Assembly: GCA_963706795.1 (NCBI GenBank)
Contig: OY970170.1
Span: 750,001-782,000, forward strand
DNA: 32,000 nt
Direction of reading: 5' to 3'
Origin: Candidatus Saccharimonadota bacterium
GTDB lineage: Bacteria; Patescibacteriota; Gracilibacteria; BD1-5; UBA2023
A model generated the notes under the pieces. The model did no database searches. It was not told the origin of the DNA and saw nothing but the letters and a program-made list of their open reading frames with translations. Every line of letters starts with the position of its first letter. The stretch's first letter is position 1. The position numbers and the translations under genes are program-made. This document shows, piece after piece, positions 1 through 26,046 of this stretch.

Positions 1-1214
1 ACGCGCTTCCACAGGCTCCACAGCAGTACAAGCAGCTCCTCATGGTGGGTGGGGTAGATAAGTATTTTCAGATTGCGCCGTGTTTCCGAGACGAAGATCC
101 ACGCGCAGATCGACACTCGTGTGAATTCTACCAGATCGACTGTGAGATGAGTTTTGTAGAACAGGAAGACGTGTTTGCAGTGGCTGAACCATTCGCACTC
201 GACCTCGTTACGACGATGACTCCACACAAGCACGTGAAGGCTGCGAAGTTCCCACGATATACGCATACAGAGGCGCTCGATCTTTTTGGATCAGATAAGC
301 CAGATGTACGATTTGATATGCACTTTGAGGAGCTCAGTGAGGATTTCCGAGATTCTGGATTCTCAGTGTTCGCAGCAGCCGTTGCAGAAGGCGGAGTGGT
401 GAAAGCGATGAAATACGAAGGATCAAAAGGGAAGGGGATCATGAGTCGATCTGAGATCGATGCACTCACAGCAACTGCTCAGGCAGAAGGAGCAAAGGGA
501 CTCGCCTACATCATCTACGAAGCAGAAGGTCCACGCTCTCCGATCCTCAAGTTCTTCACGGGAGGTGAACTCGCAGCACTCGAGGCACGTTTTGCACCAC
601 AGCCAGGAGATATGATCTTCTTCGGAGCTGGTGAGCGAAAACTCGTGAACAAGGTTCTCGGGAAGGTGCGTCTCGCGATGCGCGATACGTTCGATCTCGT
701 AGACAAGAACGAACTCGCATTCGCTTGGATTACGGATTTCCCAATGTACGAGCTCAAGGACGATGGATCATACGACTTTGAACACAACCCATTCTCTATG
801 CCACACGGCGGAGCAGCAGCGTTCAACGAAGGTGTTGACCCACTCTCGATCTACGGTTGTCAGTATGACCTCGCATGTAACGGGTACGAAGTCCTCTCAG
901 GATCTATCCGCAACCACAATATCGCAGCACTCGTGAAGGCATTCGAGATCGTAGGAAAGGGAGAAGAAGAAGTGAAGGCAAAGTTCGGTGCGGTGTACAA
1001 TGCATTTCAGTACGGAGTTCCTCCACACGGAGGATTCGCGTTTGGATTCGACCGACTCCTCATGATCCTCAAGGATGAGACCAACATCCGTGAAATCTAC
1101 GCATTCCCAAAATCTGGAAAGGCCGAAGACACGATGATGGAAGCTCCAGCCGAGATCGACGACAAGCAACTCCGCGAACTCCACATCAAGGTGCGAGAGC
1201 ATCACGGAAAATAA
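1..1214 (+). CDS. aspS: Aspartate--tRNA ligase, C-terminal ~400 aa (5' end cut by the window edge)
   Basis: The frame is open from the window edge. ALPQAPQQYKQLLMVGGVDKYFQIAPCFRDEDPRADR matches the class II AspRS motif 2 region, and GVPPHGGFAFGFDRL matches motif 3. Stop TAA at 1212-1214. Confidence 0.95.
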   Translation, partial: ALPQAPQQYKQLLMVGGVDKYFQIAPCFRDEDPRADRHSCEFYQIDCEMSFVEQEDVFAVAEPFALDLVTTMTPHKHVKAAKFPRYTHTEALDLFGSDKPDVRFDMHFEELSEDFRDSGFSVFAAAVAEGGVVKAMKYEGSKGKGIMSRSEIDALTATAQAEGAKGLAYIIYEAEGPRSPILKFFTGGELAALEARFAPQPGDMIFFGAGERKLVNKVLGKVRLAMRDTFDLVDKNELAFAWITDFPMYELKDDGSYDFEHNPFSMPHGGAAAFNEGVDPLSIYGCQYDLACNGYEVLSGSIRNHNIAALVKAFEIVGKGEEEVKAKFGAVYNAFQYGVPPHGGFAFGFDRLLMILKDETNIREIYAFPKSGKAEDTMMEAPAEIDDKQLRELHIKVREHHGK

Positions 1215-1469: not shown

Positions 1470-1706
1470 ATGACACCTCAGTGGCGAAAATATATAGCGC
1501 GCCACCCCCAGAAGAACAAACTTCTGGAGATTATTATGAGGATTCAATCTGAAGATTTTGCAGGATTAGATCTAAAGAAACTCAAAGGTTTTGAGAATCT
1601 CTATCGGGTAAGACATGGAAGCATTCGCATCATTTTTATGAAAAAAGATGATGAAAATTACATCGTTGCGGTCGATACTCGATGAGATGTATATAAAAAA
1701 TTCTAA
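1470..1706 (+). CDS. relE: RelE/ParE-family type II toxin
   Basis: LKKLKGFENLYRVRHGSIRIIFMKKDDENYIVAVDTR(G)DVYKKF matches the RelE/ParE core (LkG...YRiRvGdyRiiy...v..i.hR.dvY). Reading TGA 1683-1685 as Gly restores the conserved C-terminal DVY tail. Stop TAA at 1704-1706. Confidence 0.75.
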
Positions 1707-3787
1707 CCCTCAAACACAAACTTCTCTCCAACCACAATCTCTCCAGCGAGTATCTTTTTAGCGATAGGATTTGAGACGAGATCATTGACGGCACGTTTCA
1801 TAGGGCGGGCTCAGAATTCGGGATCGAATCCTTCGTGCATGAGTTTGTTTGCGAGTCATGGAGCAAATTCGACGAGGAATCCTTCGTCTTGGAGACGGGA
1901 TTTAATGACCACGAGCTCCTTCTCGGCAATGAGTCGAACGAGAAATTCATCGAGTGGTCGGTAAAAGACAATCTCATCGATTCGACCCAAGAGCTCAGGC
2001 CTAAAATAATGGAGGAGTATCTTTTGGAGCTCATTGCGTGAAACATCTTCGATCGCTTCGGTAAGGGCATTCGAAGTCATGAGAATGATCGTGTTTTTAA
2101 AATTTACCTTGCGTCCTTTGCCATCTGTCAAGTGGCCTTCATCGAGGATTTCTAGGAATATTTTAAAGACGTCAGGATGAGCTTTTTCGATCTCATCGAA
2201 GAGGACGACAGAATATGGCTTGCGGCGTACCGCTTCAGTGAGTTGTCCACCTTCCTCATAGCCGATATAGCCAGGAGGGGCGCCGATGAGTCGGGCAACG
2301 GAGTGGGATTCACCATATTCACCCATATCGATGCGAATCATAGCCTCGCTATCGATAAAGAGTTCTTGTGCGAGAGCTTTTGCGGTCTCAGTTTTACCAA
2401 CTCCGGTAGGTCCAAGCAAAAGGAATGATCCAATTGGTCGCTTCGGATCTCAAAGTCCGACTTTATTGCGGGCGATGGCATCAGCAATTTTATGAAGTGC
2501 GGCATCTTGGCCGAGTACGCGTTCACTTAAGCGATCAAAGAGCTCAAGGACTCGGACTTTGTCGGATTCTGCGAGCTTGCCTGCAGGGATTCCAGTCCAT
2601 TTTGCAACGACTGTTGCGATATCAGAGCTCTCGACCTTCTCACGAATCTGGGATTTACCAGCATTTTTGAGATCAAGAAGGGAAGCTTCGAGCTTGGCAA
2701 TTTGTTGCTCAAGATTTGGGATTTGGCTATATCTGATTTTTGCGACTGCCTCAAAATCGAGCATGCGCTCTTTGGTCTCAGCTTCGTGGCGGAGATTTTC
2801 GATTTCTGCCTTGAGGTCTTCGCGTTTTTTTAGAATCGTGCGTTCAGCTTCCCATGCTGTGGTTTCGGTTTCGAGAAGGGATTTTTTGTCCTTGATCGTA
2901 TCCGAGAGGGTAGTAAGACGCTCTTTTGGTGTGTCTTTTTCGCGCTCGATAGCGGCGCGTTCGATTTCGAGGGATCGGACTTCTTTCTCGAGTCGATCGA
3001 GCTCGACTGGCTTGGTTGAGGCCTGAGTCCGAACGCTTGCTGCAGCCTCGTCCACTAGGTCAATCGCCTTATCCGGAAGTCTGCGATCCGGAATATATTT
3101 GATCGCGAGTTCGACTGCGTCCACGATCGCACCATCTGTGATTTCTATTCCATGAAATGCTTCGTAGCGCTCTTTGAGTCCACGAAGAATCGCAATCGAA
3201 TCATCACGATTCGGCTCATCGATATTTACTGGCTGAAACCTGCGCTCAAGCGCACTGTCCTTCTCAATATATTTGCGATATTCATTGATGGTGGTTGCGC
3301 CGATCACTTTGATGCGACCACGAGAAAGTGCTGGTTTCATAATATTTGCGACATCGGTCGAGCCTTCGCCACCGCCTGCGCCAACGATCGTGTGGATTTC
3401 ATCAATAAAGAGGATGATCTTGCCATTCGAGTCTTCCACTGCCTTGAGTACGCCTTTGAGACGCTCTTCAAATTCGCCACGGTATTTTGCTCCGGCGATG
3501 AGACCTGCGAGATCGAGAGTGCGAATAACGCGCCCTCTGAGGGATTCTGGGACTTCGTCATTGGCAATTTTACGGGCGATTCATTCGACAATCGCGGTCT
3601 TTCCGACTCATGGATCGCCGATGAGACATGGATTATTTTTGGTGCGTCTGGAGAGGATTTCGATCGTGCGACGAATTTCTTCTTCGCGGCCAATCACGGG
3701 ATCAACCTTGCCGGCTTTTGCCTCTGCAATGAGGTCAATGGAGTATTTTTCGAGGGCGTCATTTTGGCTTTCTTGTTTGAGTTCCAT
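1703..3787 (-). CDS. clpB: ATP-dependent chaperone/disaggregase ClpB, 694 aa, lacking the N-terminal domain
   Basis: One continuous minus-strand frame from ATG 3787 to TAG 1703 once five in-frame TGA codons are read as Gly. Walker A motifs GDP(G)VGKT and GPTGVGKT, a coiled-coil M-domain, and C-terminal DPEF(G)ARPMKR. The first residues ([32 protein letters not shown]) align to the linker just before NBD1 of E. coli ClpB. Confidence 0.93.
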
Positions 3788-5174: not shown

Positions 5175-6623
5175 TTAGAAAATTTTTGGCTCTCGTGCAT
5201 CGATGACTGATTTCATAGCTTGTTCAAGTACATGGCCGACCAAGAAGACTTTTTCTTCTCCAAGTTGTGGTCAGAGAATATGAAGTCCAACTGGCATTTC
5301 TGTAGTATCGCCTGATCCATCTTCGGGCTTTGCAAATCCTACTGGCACTGAGAGTCCAGGAAGTCCGGCGAGACTTGGTGGTACTGTGTAAATGTCTGCG
5401 AGATACATCTTGAGCGGATCTTCGACTTTTTCGCCGATCTTCCATGCGACAGTTGGTCCAACGGGTCCGACGATGACATCTACTTCGTTAAATGCAGCCG
5501 TAAAGTCATTGCGAATAAGCTCTCGTACGAGCGATGCCTTCTTGTAATATGCGTCATAAAATCCAGAAGAAAGCACAAATGATCCAAGCATAATGCGTCG
5601 TGTTGGCTCAGGACCAAAGGCTGCAGCACGGTTTTTGGCAATATCTGCACCATCTCATTCGATGTGACCAAAGCGCACGCCATCATAGCGTGAGAGATTA
5701 GTTGAAGCTTCGGCTGCCATGATGATGTAATAGACAGCGAGCCCGTATTCACTCGATGGAAGCGTTACTTCTTTGATTGTTGCTCCAAGCTCCTCGAGTT
5801 TTTTGATAGCTTTTTCAATTTCGGTGCGGACTCCTGCGTCGAGACCTTCTCTAAAATATTCTTTAGGGACTCCTACGCGAACTCCAGCGAGATCTTTTTT
5901 ATCCCAAATAGCCGTGTCTACTTTTACTGGCTCTGGAAGCGAGGTTGAATCTTTTGGATCCTGACCTGCAGTGATTTCATAGAGATATGCGGCATCGCGA
6001 ACCGTTTTTGTAAAGGTACCTGGGCTGTCGAGAGAGCTCGCCATGGCGATCACTCCAAATCGACTATTGCGACCATATGTTGGCTTAAATCCAACAATTC
6101 CACACATTGAGGCAGGGAATCGGATGGATCCACCTGTATCGGTTCCAAGTGAAGCAGGTACGAGTCCTGCGGCAACAGCTGCAGCTGATCCTGATGATGA
6201 CCCACCAGGAATGCGGTCTGGAGCCCACGGATTTGCTGTAGCACCAAATGCTGAGTTTTCACCGCTTGAACCCATGGCGTATTCGTCCATGTTGCATGTC
6301 CCGAGGCTTGTAAATCCTGCCTTTTTAAGACGCTCAATAGTAGTCGCGTCATAGGGTGGAGCGAAGTTTTCGAGCATTTTTGATCCCGCGCTTGTACGTA
6401 CATCAATCTGTGAAAACACGTCTTTTACACCAAGTGGAATTCCAGCAAGTTTGCTCGTTGGATCAGCAGTCGGAGCACTCTCTGCAAGGGTTACAAAGGC
6501 ACCAAGTTCAGGATTGAATTTGGCAGCACGGTTTTTAAAGTAGGCAAATACTTCTGCTGGAGTGATTTGTCCGCTCGAAATGAGATCGCGGATGGCAAGA
6601 AGAGAAAGTCTGTGGAGTTCCAT
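5175..6623 (-). CDS. gatA: Glutamyl-tRNA(Gln)/aspartyl-tRNA(Asn) amidotransferase subunit A, 482 aa
   Basis: [25 protein letters not shown] start, and the amidase signature [14 protein letters not shown]. Three track ORFs in the same frame fuse when TGA 5655-5657 and 5271-5273 are read as Gly. Stop TAA at 5175-5177. Confidence 0.93.
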
Positions 6624-6756
6624 GATGCGAATAATTGCTATGAAGTGAGGATTATAGGGGAAAAATATGAAAAATGAAGGCAAAATAATCGCCCCCCAGA
6701 TATGTTGCATTCTCTGAGCTTCTTCATACCATTCTTGCATCATAAATTCATACTCA

Positions 6757-7524
6757 ATGAAACTCATTTCATGGAACGTCAACGGAATCCGTGCCTGCGT
6801 AAATAAGGGATTTCTCGACTATCTCCGCATCGAAAATCCTGATGTTATCGGGCTTCAAGAAGTAAAAGCAAAGGAAGATCAAAACCCCATTCTTGCCGAG
6901 CTTCAAGATCTTGGATATCAGGTTATTTGGAATCACGCCGATCGTCCTGGATATTCAGGAACAGCAGTTTTCTCAAAAATTGCACCAAAATCCATCATGT
7001 TCGCACTCGATAATTCGATCGAAGACGACAACGAAGGCCGCGTAACAACGATTGAATTCCCTGATTTTTACTACGTCACGGTCTATACGCCAAACTCCAA
7101 ACGTGAGCTCGAGCGTCTCGCCTATCGACAGCGATGGGACGTCGCGTTTTATCATTACATGAAGGAGCTCGAGAAGAAAAAACCCGTCATTTTTTGTGGG
7201 GATCTCAATGTTGCACACAAAGAAATCGACCTCACGAATCCTCGAACTAATCGAGGAAATGCCGGATTTACAGACGAAGAACGCGCTGGATTTGAGAGAT
7301 TTTTAGGAGGCGGCTTTGTGGATACATTCCGACATTTTTATCCAGATACTCCCGAGATGTATACGTGGTGGTCAAATTTTGCAAATTCGCGAGCGAAGAA
7401 TGTGGGATGGCGCATCGATTATTTTATGATGTCAGATCATTTTAAAGATAGTCTTCAGAGCGCCTTTATCCGCCCAGATATCATGGGCTCAGATCATTGT
7501 CCTGTAGGCATCGAGATCAATTAA
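6757..7524 (+). CDS. xth: Exodeoxyribonuclease III (AP endonuclease)
   Basis: MKLISWNVNGIRA..., LQEVK, GDLNVAH and SDHCPV are ExoIII/APE1 family motifs. 255 aa. Confidence 0.93.
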   Translation: MKLISWNVNGIRACVNKGFLDYLRIENPDVIGLQEVKAKEDQNPILAELQDLGYQVIWNHADRPGYSGTAVFSKIAPKSIMFALDNSIEDDNEGRVTTIEFPDFYYVTVYTPNSKRELERLAYRQRWDVAFYHYMKELEKKKPVIFCGDLNVAHKEIDLTNPRTNRGNAGFTDEERAGFERFLGGGFVDTFRHFYPDTPEMYTWWSNFANSRAKNVGWRIDYFMMSDHFKDSLQSAFIRPDIMGSDHCPVGIEIN

Positions 7525-7530
7525 AAATAT

Positions 7531-7566
7531 CCTCCGAAGCTCGTAAGAGCGAAGGAGGTTTTTTTA
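7531..7566 (+). terminator. Intrinsic terminator after xth (CCTCCGAAGCTCGTAAGAGCGAAGGAGG plus T-run)
   Basis: Same architecture as 1222-1249. The inner stem is capped by a GTAA (GNRA) tetraloop and followed by T7. Confidence 0.7.
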
Positions 7567-7666
7567 ATTACGCATCTGAGAATTAATACATAATTAACCA
7601 TTCAGAATATACTGTTGCTGCCAAGGAATAATTCTTTGACGCAGCATACAAATATAGGAGAAAATC

Positions 7667-8122
7667 ATGGTACATCAGCTCCTTACTGATGAGGCTCAAT
7701 TAGAGATAGGTACGCAATTTGCCTCTCTTCAACACGCACTGATGCAAAAGATGTTTCGAGATATCGCACGCATGGTAGCGAATCAAGAAAATATCATGGA
7801 CCACCCCTTGATTTTAGGATTAAGTCCTCATGTGCGTGAAATGGTTGCAAAAATAGATCGCATAAATTTGCTACTCTTTATGAGTAGACTCAAGGAATGT
7901 CACTTTAATATCAAATACACATCAACGGTATCACTCCTTCCAGTGGTGACGCATATGTCAGAAGTCGAAAAGATTTTTGCAAATGTTGTCATGGTAGATG
8001 GACAGAAGACCCTATTTCCTCCATCACTTTTTGAGCCGAGTATTCACGAACGTAATGATTGTGATGACAAGGGTCTCAAAAACGATATAGATTTTGAGTG
8101 CAGCGGTACTATCTCGTATTAG
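7667..8122 (+). CDS. Hypothetical protein, family 1 of island A (151 aa, C-terminal motif DIDFECSGTISY)
   Basis: AGGAG Shine-Dalgarno 6 nt before the ATG, no in-frame TGA, and a terminator downstream. Collinear paralog of 9398-9850. Confidence 0.7.
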   Translation: MVHQLLTDEAQLEIGTQFASLQHALMQKMFRDIARMVANQENIMDHPLILGLSPHVREMVAKIDRINLLLFMSRLKECHFNIKYTSTVSLLPVVTHMSEVEKIFANVVMVDGQKTLFPPSLFEPSIHERNDCDDKGLKNDIDFECSGTISY

Positions 8123-8150
8123 ATATGACCATGCTCGTATGCAAAATTTA

Positions 8151-8180
8151 AAAATCACCTACCAAGAGGTAGGTGATTTT
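8151..8180. terminator. Bidirectional terminator between convergent island-A genes
   Basis: ATCACCTACC-AAGA-GGTAGGTGAT 10-bp stem flanked by A- and T-runs. Confidence 0.65.
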
Positions 8181-8186
8181 ATTGCG

Positions 8187-8648
8187 TTATGGAAGTTTGA
8201 CGAATGCGGCATTTAGGGCTATTTCTACAGCATCAAACTTCTTGACTACTTCAAGCAATCGGGGCTTGAATTCTTCCCCTTGTGACCACCATGTTACCAT
8301 GGAGACAAAATTGAAGAGTAGACTCTTGATTGGTGTTATCAGTGATTGATGATACTGAATCACGGGGATAATTTGTTCAAGTACATCGAGAAGCAAAGTT
8401 GCATCTGATGGATTGAACATGTTTCTTTCGAGGTTTGTGGTAATCGTCATGAGATGCACTGCAGGTGTGTTCATACCTGCTTTGCAAAGTGTTTCTAAGA
8501 CGAAAGCCACCTGTCCTTGAGCTTCTTTTTTAAATTTTTTGATGTGGATTTCACCAAAATCTGGTGGTTCACATCCGGCTAAAAATGCCGTAAATGCGAG
8601 TTCGTCCTCCTGTGGAGTACACCTCTTGTCTTTTGTGTAGTGACTCAT
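8187..8648 (-). CDS. Hypothetical protein, family 2 of island A (153 aa, predicted helical)
   Basis: GGAGG Shine-Dalgarno 5 nt before the ATG. Ungapped similarity to 8786-9166 (E.H[IF]K.FKK and P[IM]K..L...V..V....P........FDA.E). Confidence 0.7.
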   Translation of the reverse strand: MSHYTKDKRCTPQEDELAFTAFLAGCEPPDFGEIHIKKFKKEAQGQVAFVLETLCKAGMNTPAVHLMTITTNLERNMFNPSDATLLLDVLEQIIPVIQYHQSLITPIKSLLFNFVSMVTWWSQGEEFKPRLLEVVKKFDAVEIALNAAFVKLP

Positions 8649-8697
8649 TTCGACCTCCTTCGGTATTTGTTTGTGGACTGTCCCAATTCGGGTGAGA

Positions 8698-8727
8698 TGA
8701 TTACATCTATTTATATGACTTTGTCAA
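8698..8727 (-). promoter_or_regulatory. Candidate sigma70-type promoter for 8187-8648
   Basis: The minus strand reads TTGACA, an 18-nt spacer, then TAATCA, about 40 nt upstream of the SD and ATG. Confidence 0.35.
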
Positions 8728-8748
8728 AATAGAGAAGAAACCCTATGT

Positions 8749-8781
8749 AAAAACACCTGCTTTTGGCAGGTGTTTTTTTGT
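8749..8781. terminator. Bidirectional hairpin terminator 3' of 8786-9166
   Basis: CACCTGC-TTTTG-GCAGGTG stem flanked by A5 and T7. Confidence 0.65.
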
Positions 8782-8785
8782 TGAG

Positions 8786-9166
8786 CTATTGTACGACTGG
8801 GGAGATATTTTCCGCAGCGTCGAATAGTGTGGCTAGCCTTCTGATATGAGGACTGAGTTTATGATATTCTTTAATTCCACTGACGTACCAAACCAGCTTT
8901 GTAAGCATCCGCTTCATAGGTTCATAAATTGATGTGAACCTTTGGAGACGCACCATCTCTTCACATCCCTTAAGTAAGTACATGATGTCATCTTCATCGA
9001 AGCCTGTGTTGCTCTCGAGTCTGAGATGAATATCGTGAAATATTGCAGCTGTATCGCTCAATTCTGCTGGCAAATTTGCTTCTTGAATACTCGTTACCAG
9101 TGTTGGAAAGTACTTTTTGAATTCCTTGAAGTGACTTTCAGTTACTTGATCAGGAAGCTGATCCAT
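8786..9166 (-). CDS. Hypothetical protein, family 2 of island A (126 aa, predicted helical)
   Basis: GGAGG Shine-Dalgarno 6 nt before the ATG. Paralog of 8187-8648. Confidence 0.7.
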   Translation of the reverse strand: MDQLPDQVTESHFKEFKKYFPTLVTSIQEANLPAELSDTAAIFHDIHLRLESNTGFDEDDIMYLLKGCEEMVRLQRFTSIYEPMKRMLTKLVWYVSGIKEYHKLSPHIRRLATLFDAAENISPVVQ

Positions 9167-9397
9167 ATCACACCTCCGTTCTGTCTATATTTGTTTGTAG
9201 GATTACTGCTTTGTCGTCGGCAATTACATTCATTTAAGAATGGTTGTCAATTTACACTAAGGTTTTGATAGAGATCTGATTATTAAATATTAATTTAATT
9301 TTTGCTTAAAGAATTAAGAAATAATTAATAGTCGAATGTATACTCAAATATGTCGGAGAATGTTTCTTCGATTCAAACACATACACAGGAGTTCATC

Positions 9398-9850
9398 ATG
9401 GCCGTAACACAAGCTTTGTCTCTGAATACCCAAGTAAATGTTGGTGCAATTGTAGCAGGTGCATTTGATGCCGCCATCAAGAAAGCTCTGCTGGATCTTG
9501 CAACTGCCGCAACCAGTCAGGAGCCTGCCCATCTACATCCTATGATTGCGAGCTTGGGTGCAGATGTACAACAAGGCATTCAATCGATTAGTTCCGATGA
9601 TCTGCTGCAGTTCATCGGAAATCAAGCAGGCTGTGTCTATAGTATAGATTTTCTCCCTGCTGTACCACGTCCGCAGGTGCCGCTCCAATTTGAAACAACC
9701 AAAATCAGACTGGATGTCGAAAAGCCTGCAGAGGGTGCTGAATCAATCTTCTCAGCTGAATTGTTTATCGGTGGTGAAGTTACTTGTGACGTCCGTGGAA
9801 GCACTCGCGGTGATATCGATATCCGCTGCGGTGGCACTATTCGCTTCTAA
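9398..9850 (+). CDS. Hypothetical protein, family 1 of island A (150 aa, C-terminal motif DIDIRCGGTIRF)
   Basis: AGGAG 6 nt before ATG 9398; the track's start at 9350 has no SD. Collinear with 7667-8122: HP[LM]I..L...V...[VI]..I....LL.F......C.[FY].I.[YF] at the same offset, with the same C-terminal motif. Confidence 0.7.
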   Translation: MAVTQALSLNTQVNVGAIVAGAFDAAIKKALLDLATAATSQEPAHLHPMIASLGADVQQGIQSISSDDLLQFIGNQAGCVYSIDFLPAVPRPQVPLQFETTKIRLDVEKPAEGAESIFSAELFIGGEVTCDVRGSTRGDIDIRCGGTIRF

Positions 9851-9900
9851 TAAGTATTTAATATCACCTTTTGGTTGGTATTAAAACTTAACTTACTTTA

Positions 9901-9928
9901 CCTCGGACTTTCGTTCGAGGTTTTTTTT
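9901..9928 (+). terminator. Intrinsic terminator after 9398-9850
   Basis: CCTCGGA-CTTTCG-TTCGAGG followed by T8. Confidence 0.6.
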
Positions 9929-9929
9929 G

Positions 9930-9969
9930 AGCGTGAGTTTTTCTTGATATATCTTGAAAAACTCACGCT
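9930..9969. promoter_or_regulatory. 13-bp perfect inverted repeat upstream of sufC (candidate operator of the suf operon)
   Basis: AGCGTGAGTTTTT-N14-AAAAACTCACGCT, 37 nt upstream of the sufC ATG. No T-run follows, so it is unlikely to be a terminator. Confidence 0.35.
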
Positions 9970-10005
9970 TTTCTCTAAAATAGGACTAAATTAGTCATCA
10001 TTTAA

Positions 10006-10737
10006 ATGTTAGAAATAGATTCACTGAGTGTGGAGGTAGGAGGGAAGTCGATTCTTGCGGGTATTTCACATAAATTTGAATCGGGGAAAACCTACTTTTT
10101 AGTTGGAAAAAATGGCTCAGGGAAATCCTCTTTGGCACTTGCGCTCATGGGGCATCCAAAATACAAGGTAACCACTGGATCACTGCATCTTGATGGTGTA
10201 AAACTCGACGCACTCTCGCCCACAGAACGTGCAAAAAAAGGTATCTTTCTCTCGCTCCAAAATGTGCCTGAGATTGCAGGTGTGAAGCTCGGAGAGTATC
10301 TGCGCACGATCTATAACGAGCGTTTAAAACGAGAAAAACCTGATACAAAAGCGATAACACCTTTTATATTTCGAAGGTTTTTAAAACCATTTTTGGAGAA
10401 GCTTCATATTCCTGAATCTTTTCTGGATCGTGATCTCAATGTTGGGTTTTCTGGGGGAGAGAAGAGGCGAATAGAGATGCTTCAGATCGAGCTTTTGGAG
10501 CCAAGGATTGTGATTGTGGATGAGATTGATTCGGGGCTTGATATTGAGGCTTTCCGTGACGTGGTTGAATGCCTCGCGCTTATTAAAAATCAAGATCGCA
10601 CGATCATTGTGATTACCCATAACTATCGAATGGCCGAGCAACTCTCGCCCGATGAGGTAATCCTCATGAAGGATGGACAGATCGAAAAACTTGGAGGCGC
10701 AGAACTGCTCAAGCAATTCGAAACTCAAGGATTTTAA
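10006..10737 (+). CDS. sufC: Fe-S cluster assembly ATPase SufC
   Basis: Walker A GKNGSGKSS, GHPKY, the ABC signature FSGGEKRR, and Walker B IVIVDEIDSGLD. Confidence 0.93.
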   Translation: MLEIDSLSVEVGGKSILAGISHKFESGKTYFLVGKNGSGKSSLALALMGHPKYKVTTGSLHLDGVKLDALSPTERAKKGIFLSLQNVPEIAGVKLGEYLRTIYNERLKREKPDTKAITPFIFRRFLKPFLEKLHIPESFLDRDLNVGFSGGEKRRIEMLQIELLEPRIVIVDEIDSGLDIEAFRDVVECLALIKNQDRTIIVITHNYRMAEQLSPDEVILMKDGQIEKLGGAELLKQFETQGF

Positions 10738-10747
10738 TTAGATATTC

Positions 10748-12175
10748 ATGTCTCAAAACACCACCGAAACTCCGCAGACTCCTCATATTTTTGAGGGGCT
10801 TTCGCGTGAGCTTTTTGATGGGCGTGACGATATTGTTTATTCTGCGCTTGCAAAGCCTGGTATCGACGAAGCAGTTGTTCGACAGATTTCGCTTGCAGGT
10901 AAAGAGCCTCTTTGGATGCTCGAATTGAGACTCAAATCACTCGAAATATTTCAGTCTAAAACCCTTCCGACTTGGGGACCAGACCTCAGTGCTCTCGATT
11001 TGGCGTCAATCTACTATTATGCAAAACCAGAAGGTACGACCGATGCCAAAAGCTGGGACGATGTGCCAGAGAGTATCAAAAATACCTTTGAACGACTGGG
11101 TATTCCAGAGGCCGAGCGAAAGGTACTTGCGGGAGTGGGTGCACAGTATGACAGTGAAGTAGTATATCATTCTCTCAAAGAAGAACTCGTCGCGTTTGGT
11201 GTCATATTTGAGGATATGTCCGTCGCCATCCATAAGCACGAAGCACTTCTCAAAAAACACTTTATGAAGTGTGTGCCGGCAAATGATCATATGTTTGCGG
11301 CTCTCCATGGTGCGGTGTGGAGCGGAGGGACTTTTCTCTATGTCCCAAAGGGTGTAAAAATTACTGAGCCACTTCAGGCGTATTTTCGCATGAATGCCAA
11401 ATCAGGAGGTCAGTTTGAGCACACAATGATCATCCTCGAGGATGATGCAGAAGCACACTATATCGAGTGATGTTCGGCGCCGAAGTACGGAACTTCGAGT
11501 CTGCATGCGGGTTGTGTTGAGATATATGTCGGTAAGAATGCCAAGATGCGATATTCGTCCGTTGAGAACTGGTCGATTGATACGTATAACCTCAATACGA
11601 AGCGTGCAATTGTCCAAGAATGAGGATTTATCGAATGGGTCGGTGGTAATCTTGGATCGGGTGTCACGATGCTCTATCCATGCTCCGTACTCCTCGGTGC
11701 CGAATCCAAGGCTCGACATATTGGTGTAGCCTTCGCAAATGCTGGACAGGTTGCGGATACGGGCGCAAAGGTCATCCATATTGGTGAGCGCACAACATCA
11801 GAAGTCATCTCCAAATCTCTCTCAAAGGGTGGCGGAATCTCGAGCTATCGAGGACTCATCGACATTCGGGCAACTGCAAAAGATGCGGTATCCAAGGTTG
11901 ATTGTGATGGACTCCTGCTCGATGAGATTTCGGTTTCGGATACAATTCCGGATATCAGGGTTAAAACCCCCTTCGCTCTCGTTTCGCAGGAAGCATCGGT
12001 TGGGAAGATTTCAGAAGATACACTCTTTTATCTCGAGAGCCGCGGTATCAGCGAAGAAGCTGCAAAAACCATGATCGTCAACGGATTTCTCGCGCCAATT
12101 GTGAGTGAACTTCCGCTCGAATATGCCGTCGAAATGAATATCCTCATCGGCATGGAAATGGAATGAAGCCACTAA
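10748..12175 (+). CDS. sufB: Fe-S cluster assembly scaffold SufB, 475 aa
   Basis: Two track ORFs in the same frame join through TGA codons. YIE(G)CSAP reproduces the conserved SufB YIEGC.AP motif (TGA 11468-11470). The C-terminal EME(G)SH* resembles the usual ...EGS.. ending. Stop TAA at 12173-12175. Confidence 0.93.
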
Positions 12176-12184
12176 AATTCATCT

Positions 12185-12612
12185 ATGTTTATTACTTTTG
12201 ATCCTAAAACCCTCGCAGACTTCCATACCCGTTTGGTACAGGAAGTTTTTGTGTGATTTATCTCAAAAGGTTGCGAAGGCACTAAAGTCGAAGTCCTCGA
12301 ATCATTCAAAAAAACAGATCTCAGCCAAGAATGATCGAGTGAAATCACGATCTATTTCCGAGAATCAGATCGAAGCAAGCTCGAGTGAGCTCGTATTACA
12401 CACGCGGGTGCAAAATGGATATTTGCTTCTGCCAATGTTACTGGTCGCTGCGGTTGTGGGTCGAGTTTTTCTTTTGAGAAGAAGTTAGTAGACAAGAGCA
12501 AAATTGCATCGCTTCGTGCAGCACTTGGCGGAGTGTCCCAATCTGCAAAAACAAAGATCGAAGCCTATGCTCTGCAATGTGAAAAAAATCCGCTCCCTGT
12601 GGGAACGGATTA
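12185..12612 (+). CDS. sufA: A-type Fe-S carrier (IscA/SufA/HesB family) with a ~45-aa C-terminal extension
   Basis: Missed by the ORF track because of three in-frame TGA codons. The translation MFITFDPKTLADFHTRLV...F(G)FISKGCEGTKVEV...ANVTGRCGCGSSFSF carries the family Cys (GC.G) and the terminal CGCG.SF motif. Stop TAA at 12610-12612. Confidence 0.7.
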
Positions 12613-12792
12613 AAGCGTTGAAGTATAGTGAAAGAAAAAAAGTATGCGTGATACCACGTATTCACAAATCATTGCAAACGCGCAGAGCAGCACTACCACC
12701 ACTATACAGAGCTTGAGTATGACCATCCAGTCAGACTTCGTTAGGCTCATAAATGAGCCGAATTGCAGCCGATTGTACATTCTTCGCCACAT
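12610..12792 (-). CDS. Small (60 aa) single-TM hydrophobic protein encoded antisense within the suf operon
   Basis: GGAGG 4 nt before ATG 12792. Its own TTGACT-16 nt-TATAAG promoter lies at 12850-12823. Contains the TM segment VILKLCIVVVVLLCAFAMICEYVV. True stop TAA. Confidence 0.45.
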   Translation of the reverse strand: MWRRMYNRLQFGSFMSLTKSDWMVILKLCIVVVVLLCAFAMICEYVVSRILFFFHYTSTL

Positions 12793-19250: not shown

Positions 19251-20018
19251 ATGAAGCAACTTCCAAAAATCCTCCTCGGTGTTGGCGTGATCATTTCTTG
19301 GTCACATTTTTCACCTATTTTTGCTGCGAGCGGAGAAAGTATCGATACTCTTTTGGGTGATCTCGATAAGAGTGAACAGGCTGCGTCAGCTGCGCCGGAT
19401 GATAGCACTCCACAAAATACTGCAAGCTCGCAGAGTACGACAAACTCCAGCACTTCCCCTGCCAATGCTGATACGAGTACGCCGCCAAGTGCTCAAGCAA
19501 TCGATGGAAGCTCCACGACTGCAGACCCATATGCGAATGAAACAAAAAAACTCGAGAGTCAACAAACAGATCCTTACGCGAACGAAACAAAAAAACTCGC
19601 AGGACAGGGAGATACAGCTGCTTCTACTGCTGCAAGCACCCCTTCACCGACTACTAAAAATCCATGCGACGGGGCGACTGCGAGTGACCTCAGATGTGCG
19701 AGCTTTAAATTTGATCCCAATACTTTTGCTCCTGGCTCCGGTCCAGGCTATTACAACGGCGATAAAGAAGGAACTCAGGGTGGTAATACCGTTCAAATGC
19801 TTCGTAAGGTTGCACAGTTTTTACTCGTAGTGGTGAGTACGGGGGCGGTGATCTTTATTACGATTGGAGGTTTCTTGATGGCGATTTCTGCAGGAGATTC
19901 GGATCGTTCAACCAAGGGTCGTACAATCATTACCTATAACATTCAGGCGCTCGTTGTCGCGCTGCTTGCATACGGTATTATTCAATTCGTAATCTGGATT
20001 TTATGAGGTCTAAGCTAG
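19251..20018 (+). CDS. VirB2/TrbC-like (T4SS-pilin-like) protein 1, with a long Ser/Thr/Ala-rich N-terminal region and two DPYANETKKL repeats
   Basis: A signal peptide, a low-complexity region, a Cys pair, then two TM helices around GGFLMAISAGDSDRSTKGR. TGA 20004-20006 is read as Gly. Stop TAG at 20016-20018. Confidence 0.75.
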
Positions 20019-20368
20019 TACTGGCGATTTTTATTCTACTTGTGGCAAATGGGCTTGATTGTGCTCATGCTGCAGGTGCTCTCAATGCTCTGCCTGATGT
20101 GGACAAGGGTATTGGATTGCCATTTCAAAATGAGAGCGTGGGTCCAGCTGGATATATAGGGAAGATCATCAAAGAGGTTATAAAGTACACAGGACTGCTC
20201 GCCATCCTTGCATTGACCTATGGGGGTATCCTCATGATGCTCTCATACGGAGATGATGGCAAGATTAAGGGTGCAAAAAATATCATCACCTATGCTCTCG
20301 TTGGAATAGTGCTTTCTGGCGCAGCATATGCTATCATCGACGCGGTTAATTCCCTTAAAATCAACTAA
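20003..20368 (+). CDS. VirB2/TrbC-like (T4SS-pilin-like) protein 2, 121 aa
   Basis: A signal peptide, then two TM helices around YGGILMMLSYGDDGKIKGAK. Overlaps the upstream gene by 16 nt. Confidence 0.75.
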   Translation: MRSKLVLAIFILLVANGLDCAHAAGALNALPDVDKGIGLPFQNESVGPAGYIGKIIKEVIKYTGLLAILALTYGGILMMLSYGDDGKIKGAKNIITYALVGIVLSGAAYAIIDAVNSLKIN

Positions 20369-20733
20369 TGAAACGTCTTACTACGTTCTTGATCTTAGCT
20401 TTGGGGCTCGTCCTTATGGGTACGGCCTTTGCGGATCAATCTACTGCGGATCTCATGCTCGTTGGAGGTGGTACGTCGAGTGCAATGGCAGATACGAATG
20501 TATCACTCAAGGATAATTTCCTCAAAACCATCCAGGTCTATCTCATCTCGGCATATGGACTCATTGCCGTTGGGATATTTATCTTTATAGGTTTCCGACT
20601 CTTTAATGCTCGTGGAAATCCACAAGAATTCAAACAGGCATGGGTCGCATTTGCGTATACAGTAGTCGGACTTTCTCTCGCTCCGCTCGCTTTTGTCATC
20701 GTACGAATCGTCACTGGCTTTTCTATCTCGTAG
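20368..20733 (+). CDS. VirB2/TrbC-like small two-TM protein 3, 121 aa
   Basis: A signal peptide (MKRLTTFLILALGLVLMGTAFA) and two TM helices separated by FNARGNPQEFK. Its start overlaps the upstream stop (TAATG). Confidence 0.7.
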   Translation: MKRLTTFLILALGLVLMGTAFADQSTADLMLVGGGTSSAMADTNVSLKDNFLKTIQVYLISAYGLIAVGIFIFIGFRLFNARGNPQEFKQAWVAFAYTVVGLSLAPLAFVIVRIVTGFSIS

Positions 20734-20736
20734 CAT

Positions 20737-21297
20737 ATGAATATGATCCGCTTCGTGCTCTTACTTCTCGTAGTTACTCAGACTTTTTTGGGTACGGGTT
20801 TTGCAGTTTTTGCAGATAATCCAGGCATGGGAAGTTACGATGGAACGACACCCGCACCAAAAACAGAAGCCGACCCCTATGCCAATGAGACTAAAAAACT
20901 CAGTGGACAATGAAACCAAGGGGCAAACACTGCAACACCCACAGCAGGATCTGAAGATTCAGGGCCATGTTCGTATCAGGAATGATCTTCGGTATCCGAT
21001 ATGCTCAGTGGTTGTCAGCCAAACAAGGTCATTACTGCGGATAATTACGACTATAAAACTGGTGCGCGAGACCGCATCGTGGCAATTGCCAATCAGATTA
21101 TCATCGTTGGATCACTTCTCTCTATTGGTGCGATCGTCTATGCAGGATTTCTCTATGTAACCTCAATGGGTGACGACGAGCGTATCAAAACCGGTAAGAA
21201 TTCCCTCAAATTTGGAATTATTGGATTTGTGGTCATGCTCCTCTCATTTCCTCTCGTTAATGCCATCGTCCGTCTCTTTTATCAGATCGGAGGATAG
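20737..21297 (+). CDS. VirB2/TrbC-like (T4SS-pilin-like) protein 4, 186 aa, with one DPYANETKKL motif
   Basis: ATG 20737 and the track ORF at 21001-21297 are in the same frame, joined through two TGA codons. It has a signal peptide, a Cys pair, and two TM helices around YAGFLYVTSMGDDERIKTGK. Confidence 0.75.
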
Positions 21298-21299
21298 AT

Positions 21300-22136
21300 A
21301 TGAAGTTCCCTAGATCAGCCGTTATTCTCTTTGCATTTTATGCAGCGCTTTTTAGCGCTCTTTTGCTTTTTGTACAGGTGGCATATTCTCCGATTAGTGG
21401 GAATTCTCCTTCTCAATCTGAGAATATCGAAGCATCAGACCTTCATTTTGATATGACTTCTTCTGGTCTCACAGCTCGTGAACAGGTGATTCAACGTCTT
21501 GAAAGTGCACCCGAAAAACCCCCCTACGAAATCATCCTTCGAGCGACCAGTGATCGTGCGCCAGCACTCAAAAAACTTCTCGAGTCTACGCTCGCCTCAT
21601 CTTTTATATCCGAGCGTGTAACACCGATTTCTGTCGAAATGGTTGATAATCGCACGGAGCCACGTGGGCAGACTTCGAATGCTGGGGTTAGTATTATTGC
21701 TACGATTCCTTCGGATAGCGAATTTCTCAAGGTATTTGTGCACGAATTGGGTCACGTAGTAGATCTACATTTTTTGATGAAAAAAACCTTTTCATCTGAT
21801 CCAAGCGATGAATTTTATGCAATCTCATGGATCGACTACAACCAAAAGAAAAAAGGGATGAATGTCGACGATTTTGTGAGTGGATATGCGCTCACAAACA
21901 AATATGAGGACTTTGCAGAATCATTCGCATTTTATGTATTTCATAATGACGAATTCAAGCGACGTGCCTCTAAAAATGCATCGCTTGCGCGAAAATATAA
22001 TTTCCTCGCGGATAATGTCTTTGCTTCGGCAGAATTTCAGGGTACTTCGTTTGAGGCTAAGAGTGTTCCCAGCTATATTTGGGACACGACCAAAGTTGCC
22101 ATCAAAACAAACAAATATTTGTTTTACCTGCGATAA
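21300..22136 (+). CDS. Membrane-anchored HExxH zinc metallopeptidase (gluzincin-like)
   Basis: An N-terminal TM helix, VFVHELGHVVD (HExxH), and about 55 aa downstream YEDFAESFAFYVF, a candidate third-ligand Glu as in the MtfA/ATLF-like families. GGAGG lies 6 nt before the ATG. Confidence 0.75.
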   Translation: MKFPRSAVILFAFYAALFSALLLFVQVAYSPISGNSPSQSENIEASDLHFDMTSSGLTAREQVIQRLESAPEKPPYEIILRATSDRAPALKKLLESTLASSFISERVTPISVEMVDNRTEPRGQTSNAGVSIIATIPSDSEFLKVFVHELGHVVDLHFLMKKTFSSDPSDEFYAISWIDYNQKKKGMNVDDFVSGYALTNKYEDFAESFAFYVFHNDEFKRRASKNASLARKYNFLADNVFASAEFQGTSFEAKSVPSYIWDTTKVAIKTNKYLFYLR

Positions 22137-25077: not shown

Positions 25078-25485
25078 TTAATTTAATGCAATAATGCCTT
25101 TGATACTTGGAATAAGACCTATGTTACTCAAATTCTTTTTCTTTTCTGAGTATTCATCTGCTAGATCTTTACCAAGGCAACTCTTGACGATATTTTGAAA
25201 GTCTTCGAGTGCTCTTAAATCTTCCCAGCGGCTACTGTTAATACCTATTTTTGCTTCCGTAACATACTCCACAAGAGCGATAATTTGCATTCCTGTTTTA
25301 TCAGCCAAAAGTGTTGCAAAGAACGCTTTAAAGCCAACTGTATACTTTAATTGATTTTTAATCTTATCTCCGATGAGATTAATTTTATCAATTAATGTAA
25401 AATCGGGATATGCATAAAGCGTCATCCTTAAAGCTCTTTGTATTACTCTAATGTATTGCTCTGTATTTTTGTTATTATTTAACAT
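25078..25485 (-). CDS. Hypothetical protein, island B (135 aa)
   Basis: AGGAG 5 nt before the ATG, no TGA codons, AT-rich codon choice, and terminators on both sides. Confidence 0.65.
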   Translation of the reverse strand: MLNNNKNTEQYIRVIQRALRMTLYAYPDFTLIDKINLIGDKIKNQLKYTVGFKAFFATLLADKTGMQIIALVEYVTEAKIGINSSRWEDLRALEDFQNIVKSCLGKDLADEYSEKKKNLSNIGLIPSIKGIIALN

Positions 25486-25704: not shown

Positions 25705-26046
25705 TTACTCTTCGAGATATCCAGTGTCTCTTGCATTCTCTATGAGATCTGCAAGATCTGTTGATGATATTACCTCATATTCTTCTTCTTTGTCATAAGG
25801 GAGAACAATATCCATATCAACAAATTTTACACCGAGTTTCTCTGCAAGTTTTTCGATGAGAACATATACTTTCACGCCGTCATTATCCAAGATAAGATCG
25901 TCGAGAAAATCATGGAACTTATCTAAGTTATCCACACATTCACTGTATAGCTTATTAAGCATATTATGCGCTAGCGTAGTGCGTTGTGTCTTATTTGTTG
26001 CCTCAATTACTGCCTGAACTTCTTGTTTTAATGCATTAATTTCCAT
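25705..26046 (-). CDS. Hypothetical acidic protein, island B (113 aa)
   Basis: AGGAG 6 nt before the ATG, no TGA codons, and an acidic C-terminal half (DKEEEYEVISSTDLADLIENARDTGYLEE). Confidence 0.65.
   Translation of the reverse strand: MEINALKQEVQAVIEATNKTQRTTLAHNMLNKLYSECVDNLDKFHDFLDDLILDNDGVKVYVLIEKLAEKLGVKFVDMDIVLPYDKEEEYEVISSTDLADLIENARDTGYLEE

What the first reader, a model, noticed from the sequence alone, without database searches (positions are those of the whole stretch)
7566..9900. Island A: a four-gene cassette built from two paralogous families of unknown function
Seen in sequence: four ORFs lie between xth and the suf operon, arranged as 7667-8122(+), 8187-8648(-), 8786-9166(-) and 9398-9850(+). 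The outer two are collinear paralogs of 151 and 150 aa, with an ungapped match HP[LM]I..L...V...[VI]..I....LL.F......C.[FY].I.[YF] starting at residues 46 and 47. The inner two are also paralogs, matching at E.H[IF]K.FKK near the N-terminus and P[IM]K..L...V..V..........P........FDA.E near the C-terminus. Each gene has its own SD, and hairpin terminators separate the units. I recognise no known domain in either family. Inference: this is a duplicated two-component module. It could be an effector/immunity pair, a toxin/antidote pair or a surface/chaperone pair, and it may be lineage-specific and undescribed.
Basis: partly seen in the sequence, partly recalled or inferred. Interest (0 to 1): 0.7.

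Follow-up and report, generated by a model that had tools for sequence, protein, structure and literature searches.

The report
Fast-evolving orphan gene islet, Gracilibacteria
Four small genes from two previously undescribed protein families sit in a strain-variable gap between two housekeeping genes of a tiny candidate-phylum bacterium; they are real, separately switched-on, fast-evolving genes, but there is no evidence that they work as a paired system, and their function is unknown.

Summary
Four ORFs lie between xth and sufC at the stated coordinates. A1/A2 are paralogs (30% identity, E 4e-17) and so are B1/B2 (28%, E 6e-9). The genome reads TGA as sense (code 25, Gracilibacteria-type).

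Both families are true orphans, with no Pfam, NCBIfam, PHROG, PADLOC, PDB or viral match. Family A has 7 known members and family B has 3, out of billions of proteins searched. B folds confidently as a helical bundle with no structural neighbour. The A model is poor: helical N-terminal half, beta-rich C-terminal half ending in G-x-hydrophobic-x-F/Y.

The "duplicated two-component module" reading is not supported. The four genes are monocistronic, and their orientation does not fit duplication of a pair. In relatives A and B occur apart: B alone at xth–sufC, A alone between UDG and Tag. The xth–sufC gap is a variable hot spot holding 0, 1 or 4 genes, or unrelated cargo.

Amino-acid change (dN) is about 4.5–11 times faster than in flanking genes (dN/dS about 0.3). 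The promoters and an A-family 5' leader hairpin with compensatory changes are conserved.

Most likely these are independent, strongly expressed accessory genes. Interest is modest.

The parts
6757..7524 (+). xth (exodeoxyribonuclease III), the conserved left flank
   Evidence: Pfam Exo_endo_phos on the orthologs. It is 86-87% identical to the L001 and L002 orthologs.
7530..7566 (+). xth terminator hairpin plus T-run; left edge of the variable region
   Evidence: Read from the sequence. A hairpin is kept at this position in L001 and L002, and similarity to the relatives ends here.
7580..7613 (+). A1 promoter region: A-box GAATTAATACATAATTAA (7580-7597) plus -10-like TATACT (7608-7613)
   Evidence: It starts 87 nt before the ATG, the same distance as the A2 box. 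The box occurs only twice in the window, against 0.09 expected.
7619..7641 (+). A1 5'-leader hairpin, followed by an A/C-rich tract (CATACAAATA, 7645-7654) and the SD AGGAG
   Evidence: RNAalifold consensus hairpin with compensatory changes across six A-family leaders. Motif hit.
7667..8122 (+). A1, family A paralog (151 aa), the divergent copy
   Evidence: The AF2 model is poor (pLDDT 45): N-terminal helices and C-terminal strands.
8151..8180 (.). Bidirectional terminator shared by the convergent A1 and B1 genes (13-bp perfect stem, T-runs on both sides)
   Evidence: repeat I6.
8187..8648 (-). B1, family B paralog (153 aa), a helical bundle
   Evidence: AF2 gives pLDDT 82.9 and pTM 0.76, six helices.
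8664..8727 (-). B1 promoter TTGACA-N16-TGTAAT (8700-8727) and leader with CAAACAAATA (8664-8673), followed by the SD GGAGG
8749..8777 (-). B2 terminator (12-bp perfect stem)
   Evidence: (repeat I14).
8786..9166 (-). B2, family B paralog (126 aa)
9188..9250 (-). B2 leader CAAACAAATA (9188-9197) and promoter TTGACA-N16-TGTAAT (9223-9250)
9311..9344 (+). A2 promoter region: A-box GAATTAAGAAATAATTAA(TAGTC) plus -10-like TATACT (9339-9344)
   Evidence: A 21-nt stretch is identical to the region upstream of the A genes in L007 and L034.
9351..9373 (+). A2 5'-leader hairpin, followed by CAAACACATA (9374-9383) and the SD AGGAG
9398..9850 (+). A2, family A paralog (150 aa; public call starts at 9350, 166 aa), the conservative copy
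   Evidence: 55% identical to P0012 and 33-37% to P0015 and P0016.
9900..9921 (+). A2 terminator; right edge of the variable region
   Evidence: Similarity to the relatives resumes at about 9950.
9954..10737 (+). sufC promoter (TTGAAA-N16-TAAAAT, 9954-9981) and sufC; the conserved right flank

Best explanation
Island A is a strain-specific accessory islet. It was built by at least two separate duplication or insertion events at a flexible junction between the core genes xth and sufC of a code-25 (Gracilibacteria-type) Patescibacterium.

It carries four independent, monocistronic genes from two unrelated orphan families of small, soluble, mildly acidic cytoplasmic proteins. Family A has a helical N-terminal half and a beta-rich C-terminal half that ends in a conserved G-x-hydrophobic-x-[F/Y]-COOH strand. 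Family B is a five- to six-helix bundle.

Each family has its own conserved expression cassette:
- A genes carry an AT-rich A-box over the -35 region, a TAnAnT -10, a hairpin at or near the predicted 5' end of the mRNA, an unstructured A/C-rich tract, a strong SD and an intrinsic terminator.
- B genes carry a near-consensus TTGACA-N16-TGTAAT promoter, a CAAACAAATA leader and a GGAGG SD.

The coding sequences change 4.5-11 times faster at the amino-acid level (dN) than neighbouring housekeeping genes, yet remain under purifying selection.

Shown: the genes are real, the paralogy is real, the locus is variable, A and B occur separately in relatives, and the cis-elements are conserved.

Inferred:
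- The proteins act independently rather than as an obligate pair.
- The hairpin, A/C-rich tract and SD serve robust, stable expression. In an organism that encodes RNase J, the hairpin would act as a 5' stabiliser.
- The role is an accessory one under diversifying pressure, such as conflict with phage or interaction with the host bacterium. This functional guess is the weakest step (about 0.3).
For: Real genes:
- Full-length paralogy.
- Homologs of matching length in other organisms.
- dN/dS of 0.31 for A orthologs and 0.34 for B.
- A confident B fold from only three sequences.

Orphan status:
- No hit in Pfam, NCBIfam, PHROGs or PADLOC.
- No hit among PDB sequences or in Foldseek PDB and BFVD, best E 0.2.
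- No hit in phage genomes or viral contigs.
- 5.8 billion proteins gave only B1, B2 and P0011 for family B.
- Exhaustive HMMER over 1.84 billion representatives gave only A1, P0012, P0013, P0015 and P0016 for family A, plus two repeat-protein artefacts.

Variable hot spot:
- xth-sufC synteny is kept in 11 relatives.
- The gap holds nothing in L009 and L015, one B gene in L002, a CDF transporter in L012, L013, L017 and L020, and other unrelated ORFs in L010, L011 and L028.

A and B occur apart:
- L002 has B only. L007 and L034 have A only, between UDG and Tag. L004-6 have A only.

Independent units:
- Separate promoters, SDs and terminators on opposite strands.

Conserved cis-elements:
- The A-box 21-mer is identical in A2, L007 and L034, although the proteins are only 33-54% identical.
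- In the leader hairpin, 7 of 8 pairs show compensatory change. 89.6% of cells are paired against 72% in shuffles (0 of 500 reach the observed value) and 33-55% in slid controls.
- The B promoter pattern occurs only at B genes: 2 hits in the window against 0.04 expected, and 1 hit in the 34 fetched loci.

Fast evolution:
- A has dN 0.39 against 0.035 for the adjacent UDG.
- B has dN 0.66 against 0.10 for xth and 0.145 for sufC.

Soluble proteins:
- No hydrophobic segment; pI 4.4-7.1.

Distinct translation signals:
- SD present in 4 of 4 island genes against 2 of 20 housekeeping genes, Fisher p = 0.0014.
Against: - No function was assigned to either family, so 'independent accessory genes' rests mostly on negative evidence and on a handful of loci.
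- Most related contigs are short (0.7-12 kb). A partner gene elsewhere in those genomes cannot be excluded.
- In sample SRR34292219 both families are present (L002 and L007) on contigs of matching composition (tetranucleotide r 0.91). Genome-level co-occurrence may therefore hold even though adjacency does not.
- The P0013 locus has two small convergent ORF fragments downstream (50 and 70 aa, weak Hemerythrin hit). They could be a split B-like gene, but no DNA was available to check.
- Only 32 kb of the source genome was visible, so other A or B copies are unknown.
- The hairpin statistics come from six sequences, and the structure was derived from the same alignment.
- dS is near saturation, so the dN/dS values are rough.
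Confidence: 0.6

Rival explanations
1. This is a duplicated two-component module. A is a toxin or effector and B its antidote, immunity protein or chaperone, with pairs A1/B1 and A2/B2.
For: Two copies of each family sit side by side in the window. Both families evolve fast, as arms-race genes do. Both are present in sample SRR34292219. All four leaders share a CA(A/T)ACA(A/C)ATA tract: 4 of the 9 window hits, against 3.1 expected.
Against: The genes are never co-transcribed. They lie on opposite strands, each with its own promoter and terminator. The orientation pattern does not fit duplication of a pair. B is alone in L002, and A is alone in L007, L034 and L004-6. No toxin, antitoxin, immunity or defence domain was found. 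A has no secretion signal or trafficking domain.
Confidence: 0.15
2. The island is a remnant of foreign or mobile DNA, such as a prophage moron or a decayed integrative element, inserted between xth and sufC.
For: GC is lower (0.40-0.41 against about 0.44-0.45). SD-led translation is found in all four island genes but in only 2 of 20 housekeeping genes. There are no in-frame TGA codons against about 2-3.5 expected, which is not significant. Presence is strain-specific. A2's closest homolog is in a compositionally different organism with GC 0.54.
Against: There is no integrase, transposase, tRNA or flanking direct or inverted repeat. No relatives were found in IMG/VR, GenBank phages or PHROGs. 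The A2 promoter is identical to that of a chromosomal A gene at the UDG-Tag locus in relatives, and the B promoter is shared with the L002 B gene at the same chromosomal site. This points to long residence in the lineage.
Confidence: 0.12
3. A and/or B are accessory factors of the neighbouring housekeeping pathways: base-excision repair for A, or Fe-S cluster assembly and repair for B.
For: A genes lie next to base-excision repair genes in two independent contexts: xth here, and between UDG and Tag in L007 and L034. B lies directly upstream of the suf operon here and in L002. Its weak Foldseek matches include the hemerythrin-like Fe-S repair protein YtfE.
Against: Each gene has its own promoter and terminator. 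Both families are absent from the same site in close relatives with intact xth and suf. Other A contexts are unrelated, for example a trypsin-like protease and aconitase_C. The YtfE matches are noise (E 0.8-1.8, TM about 0.26). There is no Hemerythrin Pfam hit and no conserved His/Glu ligand. Housekeeping partners would not evolve 4.5-11 times faster than their pathway.
Confidence: 0.08
4. The ORFs are decaying or non-functional reading frames with no current role.
For: Distribution is extremely narrow, divergence is high, and no domain was found.
Against: The frames are intact, with dN/dS about 0.3. Length and motifs are conserved over seven A and three B sequences. B folds confidently. Promoters, leader hairpin, SDs and terminators are conserved.
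Confidence: 0.03

Closest known systems
Flexible genomic islets or hot spots between conserved core genes (the kind of site where defence or accessory genes accumulate in well-studied bacteria)
   Same: The flanks (xth, sufC) are conserved while the gene content between them differs among close relatives: 0, 1 or 4 genes, or unrelated cargo. The contents are lineage-specific, fast-evolving small genes.
   Different: No integrase, tRNA, repeats or recognisable defence or mobile genes. The content here arose partly by local duplication.
Type II toxin-antitoxin and polymorphic effector-immunity gene pairs
   Same: Small adjacent genes of two families, duplicated and rapidly diverging.
   Different: The genes are not co-transcribed and lie on opposite strands. 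No known toxin, antitoxin or immunity domains were found. The pairing is not conserved in relatives, and there is no secretion or trafficking domain.
5'-terminal stabiliser stem-loops of highly expressed bacterial mRNAs (for example B. subtilis aprE and ermC leaders, E. coli ompA; from my own knowledge of the literature)
   Same: A-family leaders have a 7-9 bp hairpin at the predicted 5' end, then an unstructured tract and a strong SD. The hairpin is kept by compensatory changes. The genome encodes RNase J.
   Different: The transcription start is not mapped and the stabilising effect is untested. There is no Rfam family for it.
Generic up-and-down helical bundles (hemerythrin-like YtfE/RIC, talin R4, Avd-like), the best Foldseek matches to B
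   Same: All-alpha bundle of 120-150 residues.
   Different: All matches have E >= 0.2 and a query-normalised TM of 0.42 or less. There is no sequence-profile hit, no conserved metal ligands, and no reverse transcriptase or repeats for a diversity-generating retroelement.

Membership tests
Type II toxin-antitoxin system | Two genes co-transcribed as one operon | tested here: not met
   A and B lie on opposite strands. Each has its own promoter, SD and terminator.
Type II toxin-antitoxin system | Recognisable toxin fold or domain and a DNA-binding antitoxin domain | tested here: not met
   No Pfam, NCBIfam or PADLOC hit. B is an acidic helical bundle with no HTH, RHH or AbrB match.
Type II toxin-antitoxin system | Pairing conserved across genomes | tested here: not met
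   B is alone in L002. A is alone in L007, L034 and L004-6.
Polymorphic toxin / effector-immunity pair | Effector with an N-terminal trafficking or secretion domain or signal | tested here: not met
   No domain hit. No hydrophobic N-terminus or TM segment. A C-terminal signal cannot be excluded.
Polymorphic toxin / effector-immunity pair | Immunity gene immediately downstream on the same strand | tested here: not met
   The gene order is A>, <B, <B, A>.
Polymorphic toxin / effector-immunity pair | Physical neutralising interaction of the two proteins | not testable with these tools
   No multimer prediction or experiment was available.
Known anti-phage defence systems (PADLOC) | Match to a defence-protein model | tested here: not met
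   Only noise hits, E >= 0.01.
Prophage / integrative mobile element | Integrase or transposase, flanking repeats, a tRNA target, or viral homologs | tested here: not met
Hemerythrin-like / RIC (YtfE) di-iron proteins (considered for B) | PF01814 profile match and conserved His/Glu/Asp iron ligands | tested here: not met
   No Pfam hit. No invariant His among the three B sequences.
Hemerythrin-like / RIC (YtfE) di-iron proteins (considered for B) | Four-helix-bundle fold superposable on YtfE | tested here: inconclusive
   Foldseek E 0.8-1.8, TM about 0.26.
Rfam cis-regulatory RNA families (considered for the A leader hairpin) | Covariance-model match at gathering score | tested here: not met
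   No hit at gathering score. The only sub-threshold hit, PsrR1, falls on the A2 terminator.

The most novel reading that the evidence does not exclude
Families A and B are parts of an undescribed, genus-restricted conflict or host-interaction system of episymbiotic or predatory Gracilibacteria. A would be an abundantly expressed, rapidly diversifying effector-like protein. Its invariant C-terminal G-x-hydrophobic-x-[F/Y]-COOH strand would act as a recognition or export tag. B would be a diversifying helical-bundle partner or modulator. Both would be driven by dedicated conserved promoters and, for A, by a new 5'-leader RNA element.
Probability: 0.15. Interest if true: 0.65.

Novelty: new member of a known kind. 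Interest (0 to 1): 0.3.

Why it matters
Gracilibacteria and their relatives are uncultured, reduced-genome bacteria, and most of their lineage-specific genes are opaque. This locus gives a clean, small example of how such genomes gain novelty. A junction between two core genes gains and loses small orphan genes between near relatives. Those genes duplicate in place and diverge about 4.5-11 times faster than their neighbours. Their promoters and an mRNA leader hairpin stay fixed while they do so.

The conserved A-box, the leader hairpin and the SD-led translation stand out in a genome region where housekeeping genes mostly lack an SD. They are concrete, testable handles on gene expression in a lineage where almost nothing is known about regulation.

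The finding does not by itself reveal a new system. The proteins remain of unknown function.

Tried and rejected
- **Domain and family searches.** All four proteins, all six complete A members, and the three-sequence B profile (PDB sequence search only) gave nothing against Pfam, NCBIfam, PHROGs, PADLOC or PDB sequences.
- **Structure.** The B model is good but has no Foldseek neighbour in PDB or BFVD.
- **A versus B, and A versus 'family C'.** Family C is the set of ORFs in the L010 and L011 gaps. hhalign finds both unrelated to A. I had suspected a shared HP...L...FL motif with family C and rejected it.
- **HMM artefacts.** P0014 and P0017 from the exhaustive search are internally repetitive proteins scoring by summed repeats. 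They are not family members.
- **Collection scans with protein patterns.** Scans of the metagenome, genome and viral collections found no further relatives. Two alignments were too divergent to give patterns.
- **Viral hits to the A-box.** Exact 19-mer hits in viral contigs are chance matches in AT-rich DNA. No A or B homolog lies nearby.
- **TGA depletion as a sign of foreign origin.** 0 observed against about 2-3.5 expected (P(0) about 0.03, or about 0.08 without one doubtful ORF; my rough correction for the island's low glycine content lowers the expectation further). I judge this not significant, and many host genes also have none.
- **Remnant of a deleted B gene in the empty L001 gap.** The alignment is not convincing.
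- **Identifying the source genome from the literature.** The closed Gracilibacteria genome of PMC6851277 is 1.34 Mbp, not 1,267,896 bp.
- **DNA-mimic idea for A (it neighbours UDG, like Ugi).** The proteins are only mildly acidic, pI 4.4-7.1. There is no support.
- **Small heat-shock protein and RelE/ParE-like ideas for A.** No HSP20 or ParE profile hit.
Full report
**Setting**

The window comes from a bacterium that reads TGA as a sense codon. SufB (10748-12175), GatA, ClpB and others are intact only when TGA is read through. Housekeeping genes average about 0.4-0.6 TGA per 100 codons. The xth protein and its relatives come from MAGs labelled Patescibacteria, Gracilibacteria or Peribacteria. 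The source contig is 1,267,896 bp.

Gene order around the finding is aspS, clpB, two small genes, gatA, xth, then the island, then sufC, sufB, a 142-aa ORF, sufD and sufS. T4SS-pilin-like genes, a Zn-peptidase and RNase J follow further on.

- A1 (7667-8122, +) and A2 (9398-9850, +) align over their full length at 30% identity, E 4e-17.
- B1 (8187-8648, -) and B2 (8786-9166, -) align over 116 residues at 28% identity, E 6e-9.
- The quoted motif strings are exact.
- The longer 9350 start used in public gene calls is unlikely. The homolog P0012 starts MAVT as A2 does from 9398, an AGGAG precedes 9398, and the upstream elements sit at the same distance from the ATG as in A1.
- Families A and B are unrelated to each other.

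**Both families are orphans**

- No profile library gives a significant hit: Pfam, NCBIfam, PHROGs and PADLOC.
- PDB sequences give nothing.
- GenBank phages and IMG/VR give nothing.

Family B. Word-indexed searches of 5.8 billion proteins return only the query for B1. With a three-sequence profile they return only B1, B2 and P0011. P0011 is the gene I had already found in locus L002.

Family A. An exhaustive HMMER search of 1.84 billion representatives returns A1, P0012 (151 aa), P0013 (156 aa), P0015 and P0016 (123 aa each), plus two repeat-protein artefacts. A seventh, truncated member turned up in L034 through the conserved promoter. Every member found through the protein collection is a singleton cluster.

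Protein properties. All are soluble and mostly mildly acidic, with no hydrophobic segment.
- B1 folds with pLDDT 82.9 and pTM 0.76 as six helices, five of them in the core shared with B2 and P0011. It has no structural neighbour: best Foldseek E is 0.2 in PDB and 0.45 in BFVD.
- The A1 model, made from only two sequences, is poor (pLDDT 45). It shows helices to about residue 77 and strands after that.
- All six complete A proteins end in G-[TK]-hydrophobic-x-[F/Y].

**The locus is a variable hot spot**

Two close relatives have flanking proteins 80-91% identical to the window.
- L001/L009 has a 190-nt gap with no gene between xth and sufC.
- L002 has a single gene, a family-B member 32% identical to B1.

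Similarity to the window stops at the xth terminator and resumes at the sufC promoter.

In nine more distant relatives that keep xth-sufC synteny, the gap is empty, or holds a CDF transporter, or holds unrelated ORFs. There is no integrase, tRNA or flanking repeat.

**A and B are not a conserved pair**

- L002 has B without A.
- L007 comes from the same sequencing run as L002, with matching tetranucleotide composition (r 0.91). L034 is orthologous to it. Both have A between UDG and Tag, without B.
- L004-6, from a different organism at GC 54%, have A after a trypsin-like gene, without B.
- For P0013 no DNA was available. Two small convergent ORF fragments lie downstream and remain unchecked.

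Within the window the order A>, <B, <B, A> gives one convergent and one divergent A/B pair. Neither a direct nor an inverted duplication of a pair can produce that order.

**Four independent expression units with family-specific, conserved signals**

B genes:
- TTGACA-N16-T[GT]TAAT occurs in the window only before B1 and B2 (0.04 expected). Among 34 fetched loci it occurs only before the L002 B gene.
- It is followed by a CAAACAAA[TC]A leader and GGAGG.

A genes:
- An AT-rich box, GAATTAA-N5-ATAATTAA, overlaps the -35 region, with a TAnAnT -10 placed 29 nt after the box start.
- A 21-nt stretch of the box is identical in A2, L007 and L034. The proteins are only 33% (A2 against P0015) and about 54% (L034 against P0015) identical.
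- Downstream, all six A leaders fold into a 7-9 bp hairpin at the predicted mRNA 5' end, followed by an A/C-rich tract and the SD.
- RNAalifold finds eight pairs, seven of them with compensatory changes. 89.6% of cells are paired, against 72% in shuffles (0 of 500 reach the observed value) and 33-55% in slid controls.
- From general knowledge, such 5' stem-loops stabilise mRNAs against 5'-end-dependent decay. The window encodes RNase J. This role is inferred, not shown.

Terminators close every unit. All four genes have an SD, against 2 of 20 housekeeping genes in the window (p = 0.0014).

**Evolutionary rate**

| Comparison | aa identity | dN | dN/dS |
|---|---|---|---|
| A orthologs, L034 vs L007 | 54% | 0.39 | 0.31 |
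| Adjacent UDG, L034 vs L007 | 94% | 0.035 | 0.05 |
| B1 vs the L002 B gene | 32% | 0.66 | 0.34 |
| xth, window vs L002 | 86% | 0.10 | 0.05 |
| sufC, window vs L002 | 80% | 0.145 | 0.03 |

All values are. dS is close to saturation in every comparison and exceeds 1.9 in all window-versus-L002 comparisons. The genes are constrained but accumulate amino-acid changes 4.5-11 times faster than their neighbours.

A2 is the conservative copy: 55% identical to P0012 and 33-37% to P0015 and P0016. A1 is the divergent one.

**Interpretation**

The best-supported account is an accessory islet assembled by local duplication and insertion at a flexible core-gene junction. It carries independently and probably strongly expressed small cytoplasmic proteins of two new families.

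The pattern is narrow distribution, presence/absence between near relatives, fast protein evolution and fixed regulatory DNA. It is what one expects of genes under diversifying pressure, such as conflict with phage or interaction with a host cell. That last step is inference (about 0.3).

Other readings have little support:
- The toxin/antidote or effector/immunity module lacks every defining feature I could test.
- A mobile-element origin has only compositional hints: GC 0.40 and SD use.
- Links to base-excision repair or Fe-S metabolism rest on adjacency and on noise-level fold matches.

**Verdict**

The protein families are new, but the kind of feature is familiar: an orphan-gene islet at a variable junction. 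Interest is modest (0.3). The conserved A-box and the covarying leader hairpin are the most concrete new items.

Noticed in passing
window 10748-12175, 5175-6767, 1703-3787 and others; L001 10960-11691: TGA is a sense codon (code 25 type). SufB, GatA and ClpB are intact only when TGA is read through. Public gene calls for relatives made with the standard code split genes, for example sufC of L001 into 68 + 174 aa.
   Followed up: partly
window, start regions of about 20 housekeeping genes (e.g. 6757, 10006, 28446): Housekeeping genes almost never have a Shine-Dalgarno motif (2 of 20). The four island genes and two genes of a second islet all do. Translation initiation in this organism seems largely SD-independent, with SD-led genes confined to accessory islets.
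   Followed up: partly
window 25078-25485(-) and 25705-26046(-): A second small low-GC islet (GC 0.32-0.36; the 25-26 kb bin is 0.34). It holds two SD-led ORFs of 135 and 113 aa with no Pfam hit. One has an ACAAACAA tract in its leader.
   Followed up: no
window 7619-7641 and 9351-9373; L007 about 5970-5989; L034 about 391-408(-); L004 about 2335-2357; L008 about 296-313: A conserved hairpin in the 5' leaders of all six A-family genes, kept by compensatory changes (7 of 8 pairs). It has no Rfam counterpart and is a candidate 5' mRNA stabiliser or regulatory element.
   Followed up: yes
L010 1035-1502, L011 6787-7299 (and L011 7861-11075), L012/L013/L017/L020 gaps, L028 6814-7872: The xth-sufC gap of relatives carries other cargo: a CDF-type cation transporter, a Cys-rich 155-170 aa family ('C'), a 352-aa unknown protein, and in L011 a 483-aa membrane protein and a 578-aa protein with a type IV pilin-like N-terminus.
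   Followed up: partly
L007 5196-6998; L034 1-1181; window 6757-8122: A-family genes sit next to base-excision repair genes in two independent contexts: between UDG and Tag, and after xth. This may be chance or a weak functional hint.
   Followed up: partly
window 20003-22136: Three consecutive small genes, all with hydrophobic N-termini; the first two match T4SS_pilin (the third was not scanned because it contains TGA). They are followed by a putative Zn-metallopeptidase with Peptidase_Mx1 and anthrax-lethal-factor-like hits.
   Followed up: no
window 12185-12613: A 142-aa ORF with three in-frame TGA codons lies between sufB and sufD. Relatives have an ORF of similar size at the same position (L001 13358-13771, L002 5217-5633). 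It was not scanned here (it contains TGA); the public gene calls for the relatives list no Pfam family for their counterparts.
   Followed up: no
window 9849-9925: A sub-threshold Rfam hit to the cyanobacterial sRNA PsrR1 (27.9 bits against a gathering score of 42). It coincides with the A2 terminator and is most likely chance.
   Followed up: yes
P0013 locus (JGI 3300071358, 2.9-kb contig; no DNA available): Downstream of this A-family gene lie two convergent ORF fragments of 50 and 70 aa, with a weak Hemerythrin hit. They may be one roughly 125-aa gene split at a TGA codon. The size and orientation resemble the A1/B1 arrangement.
   Followed up: no
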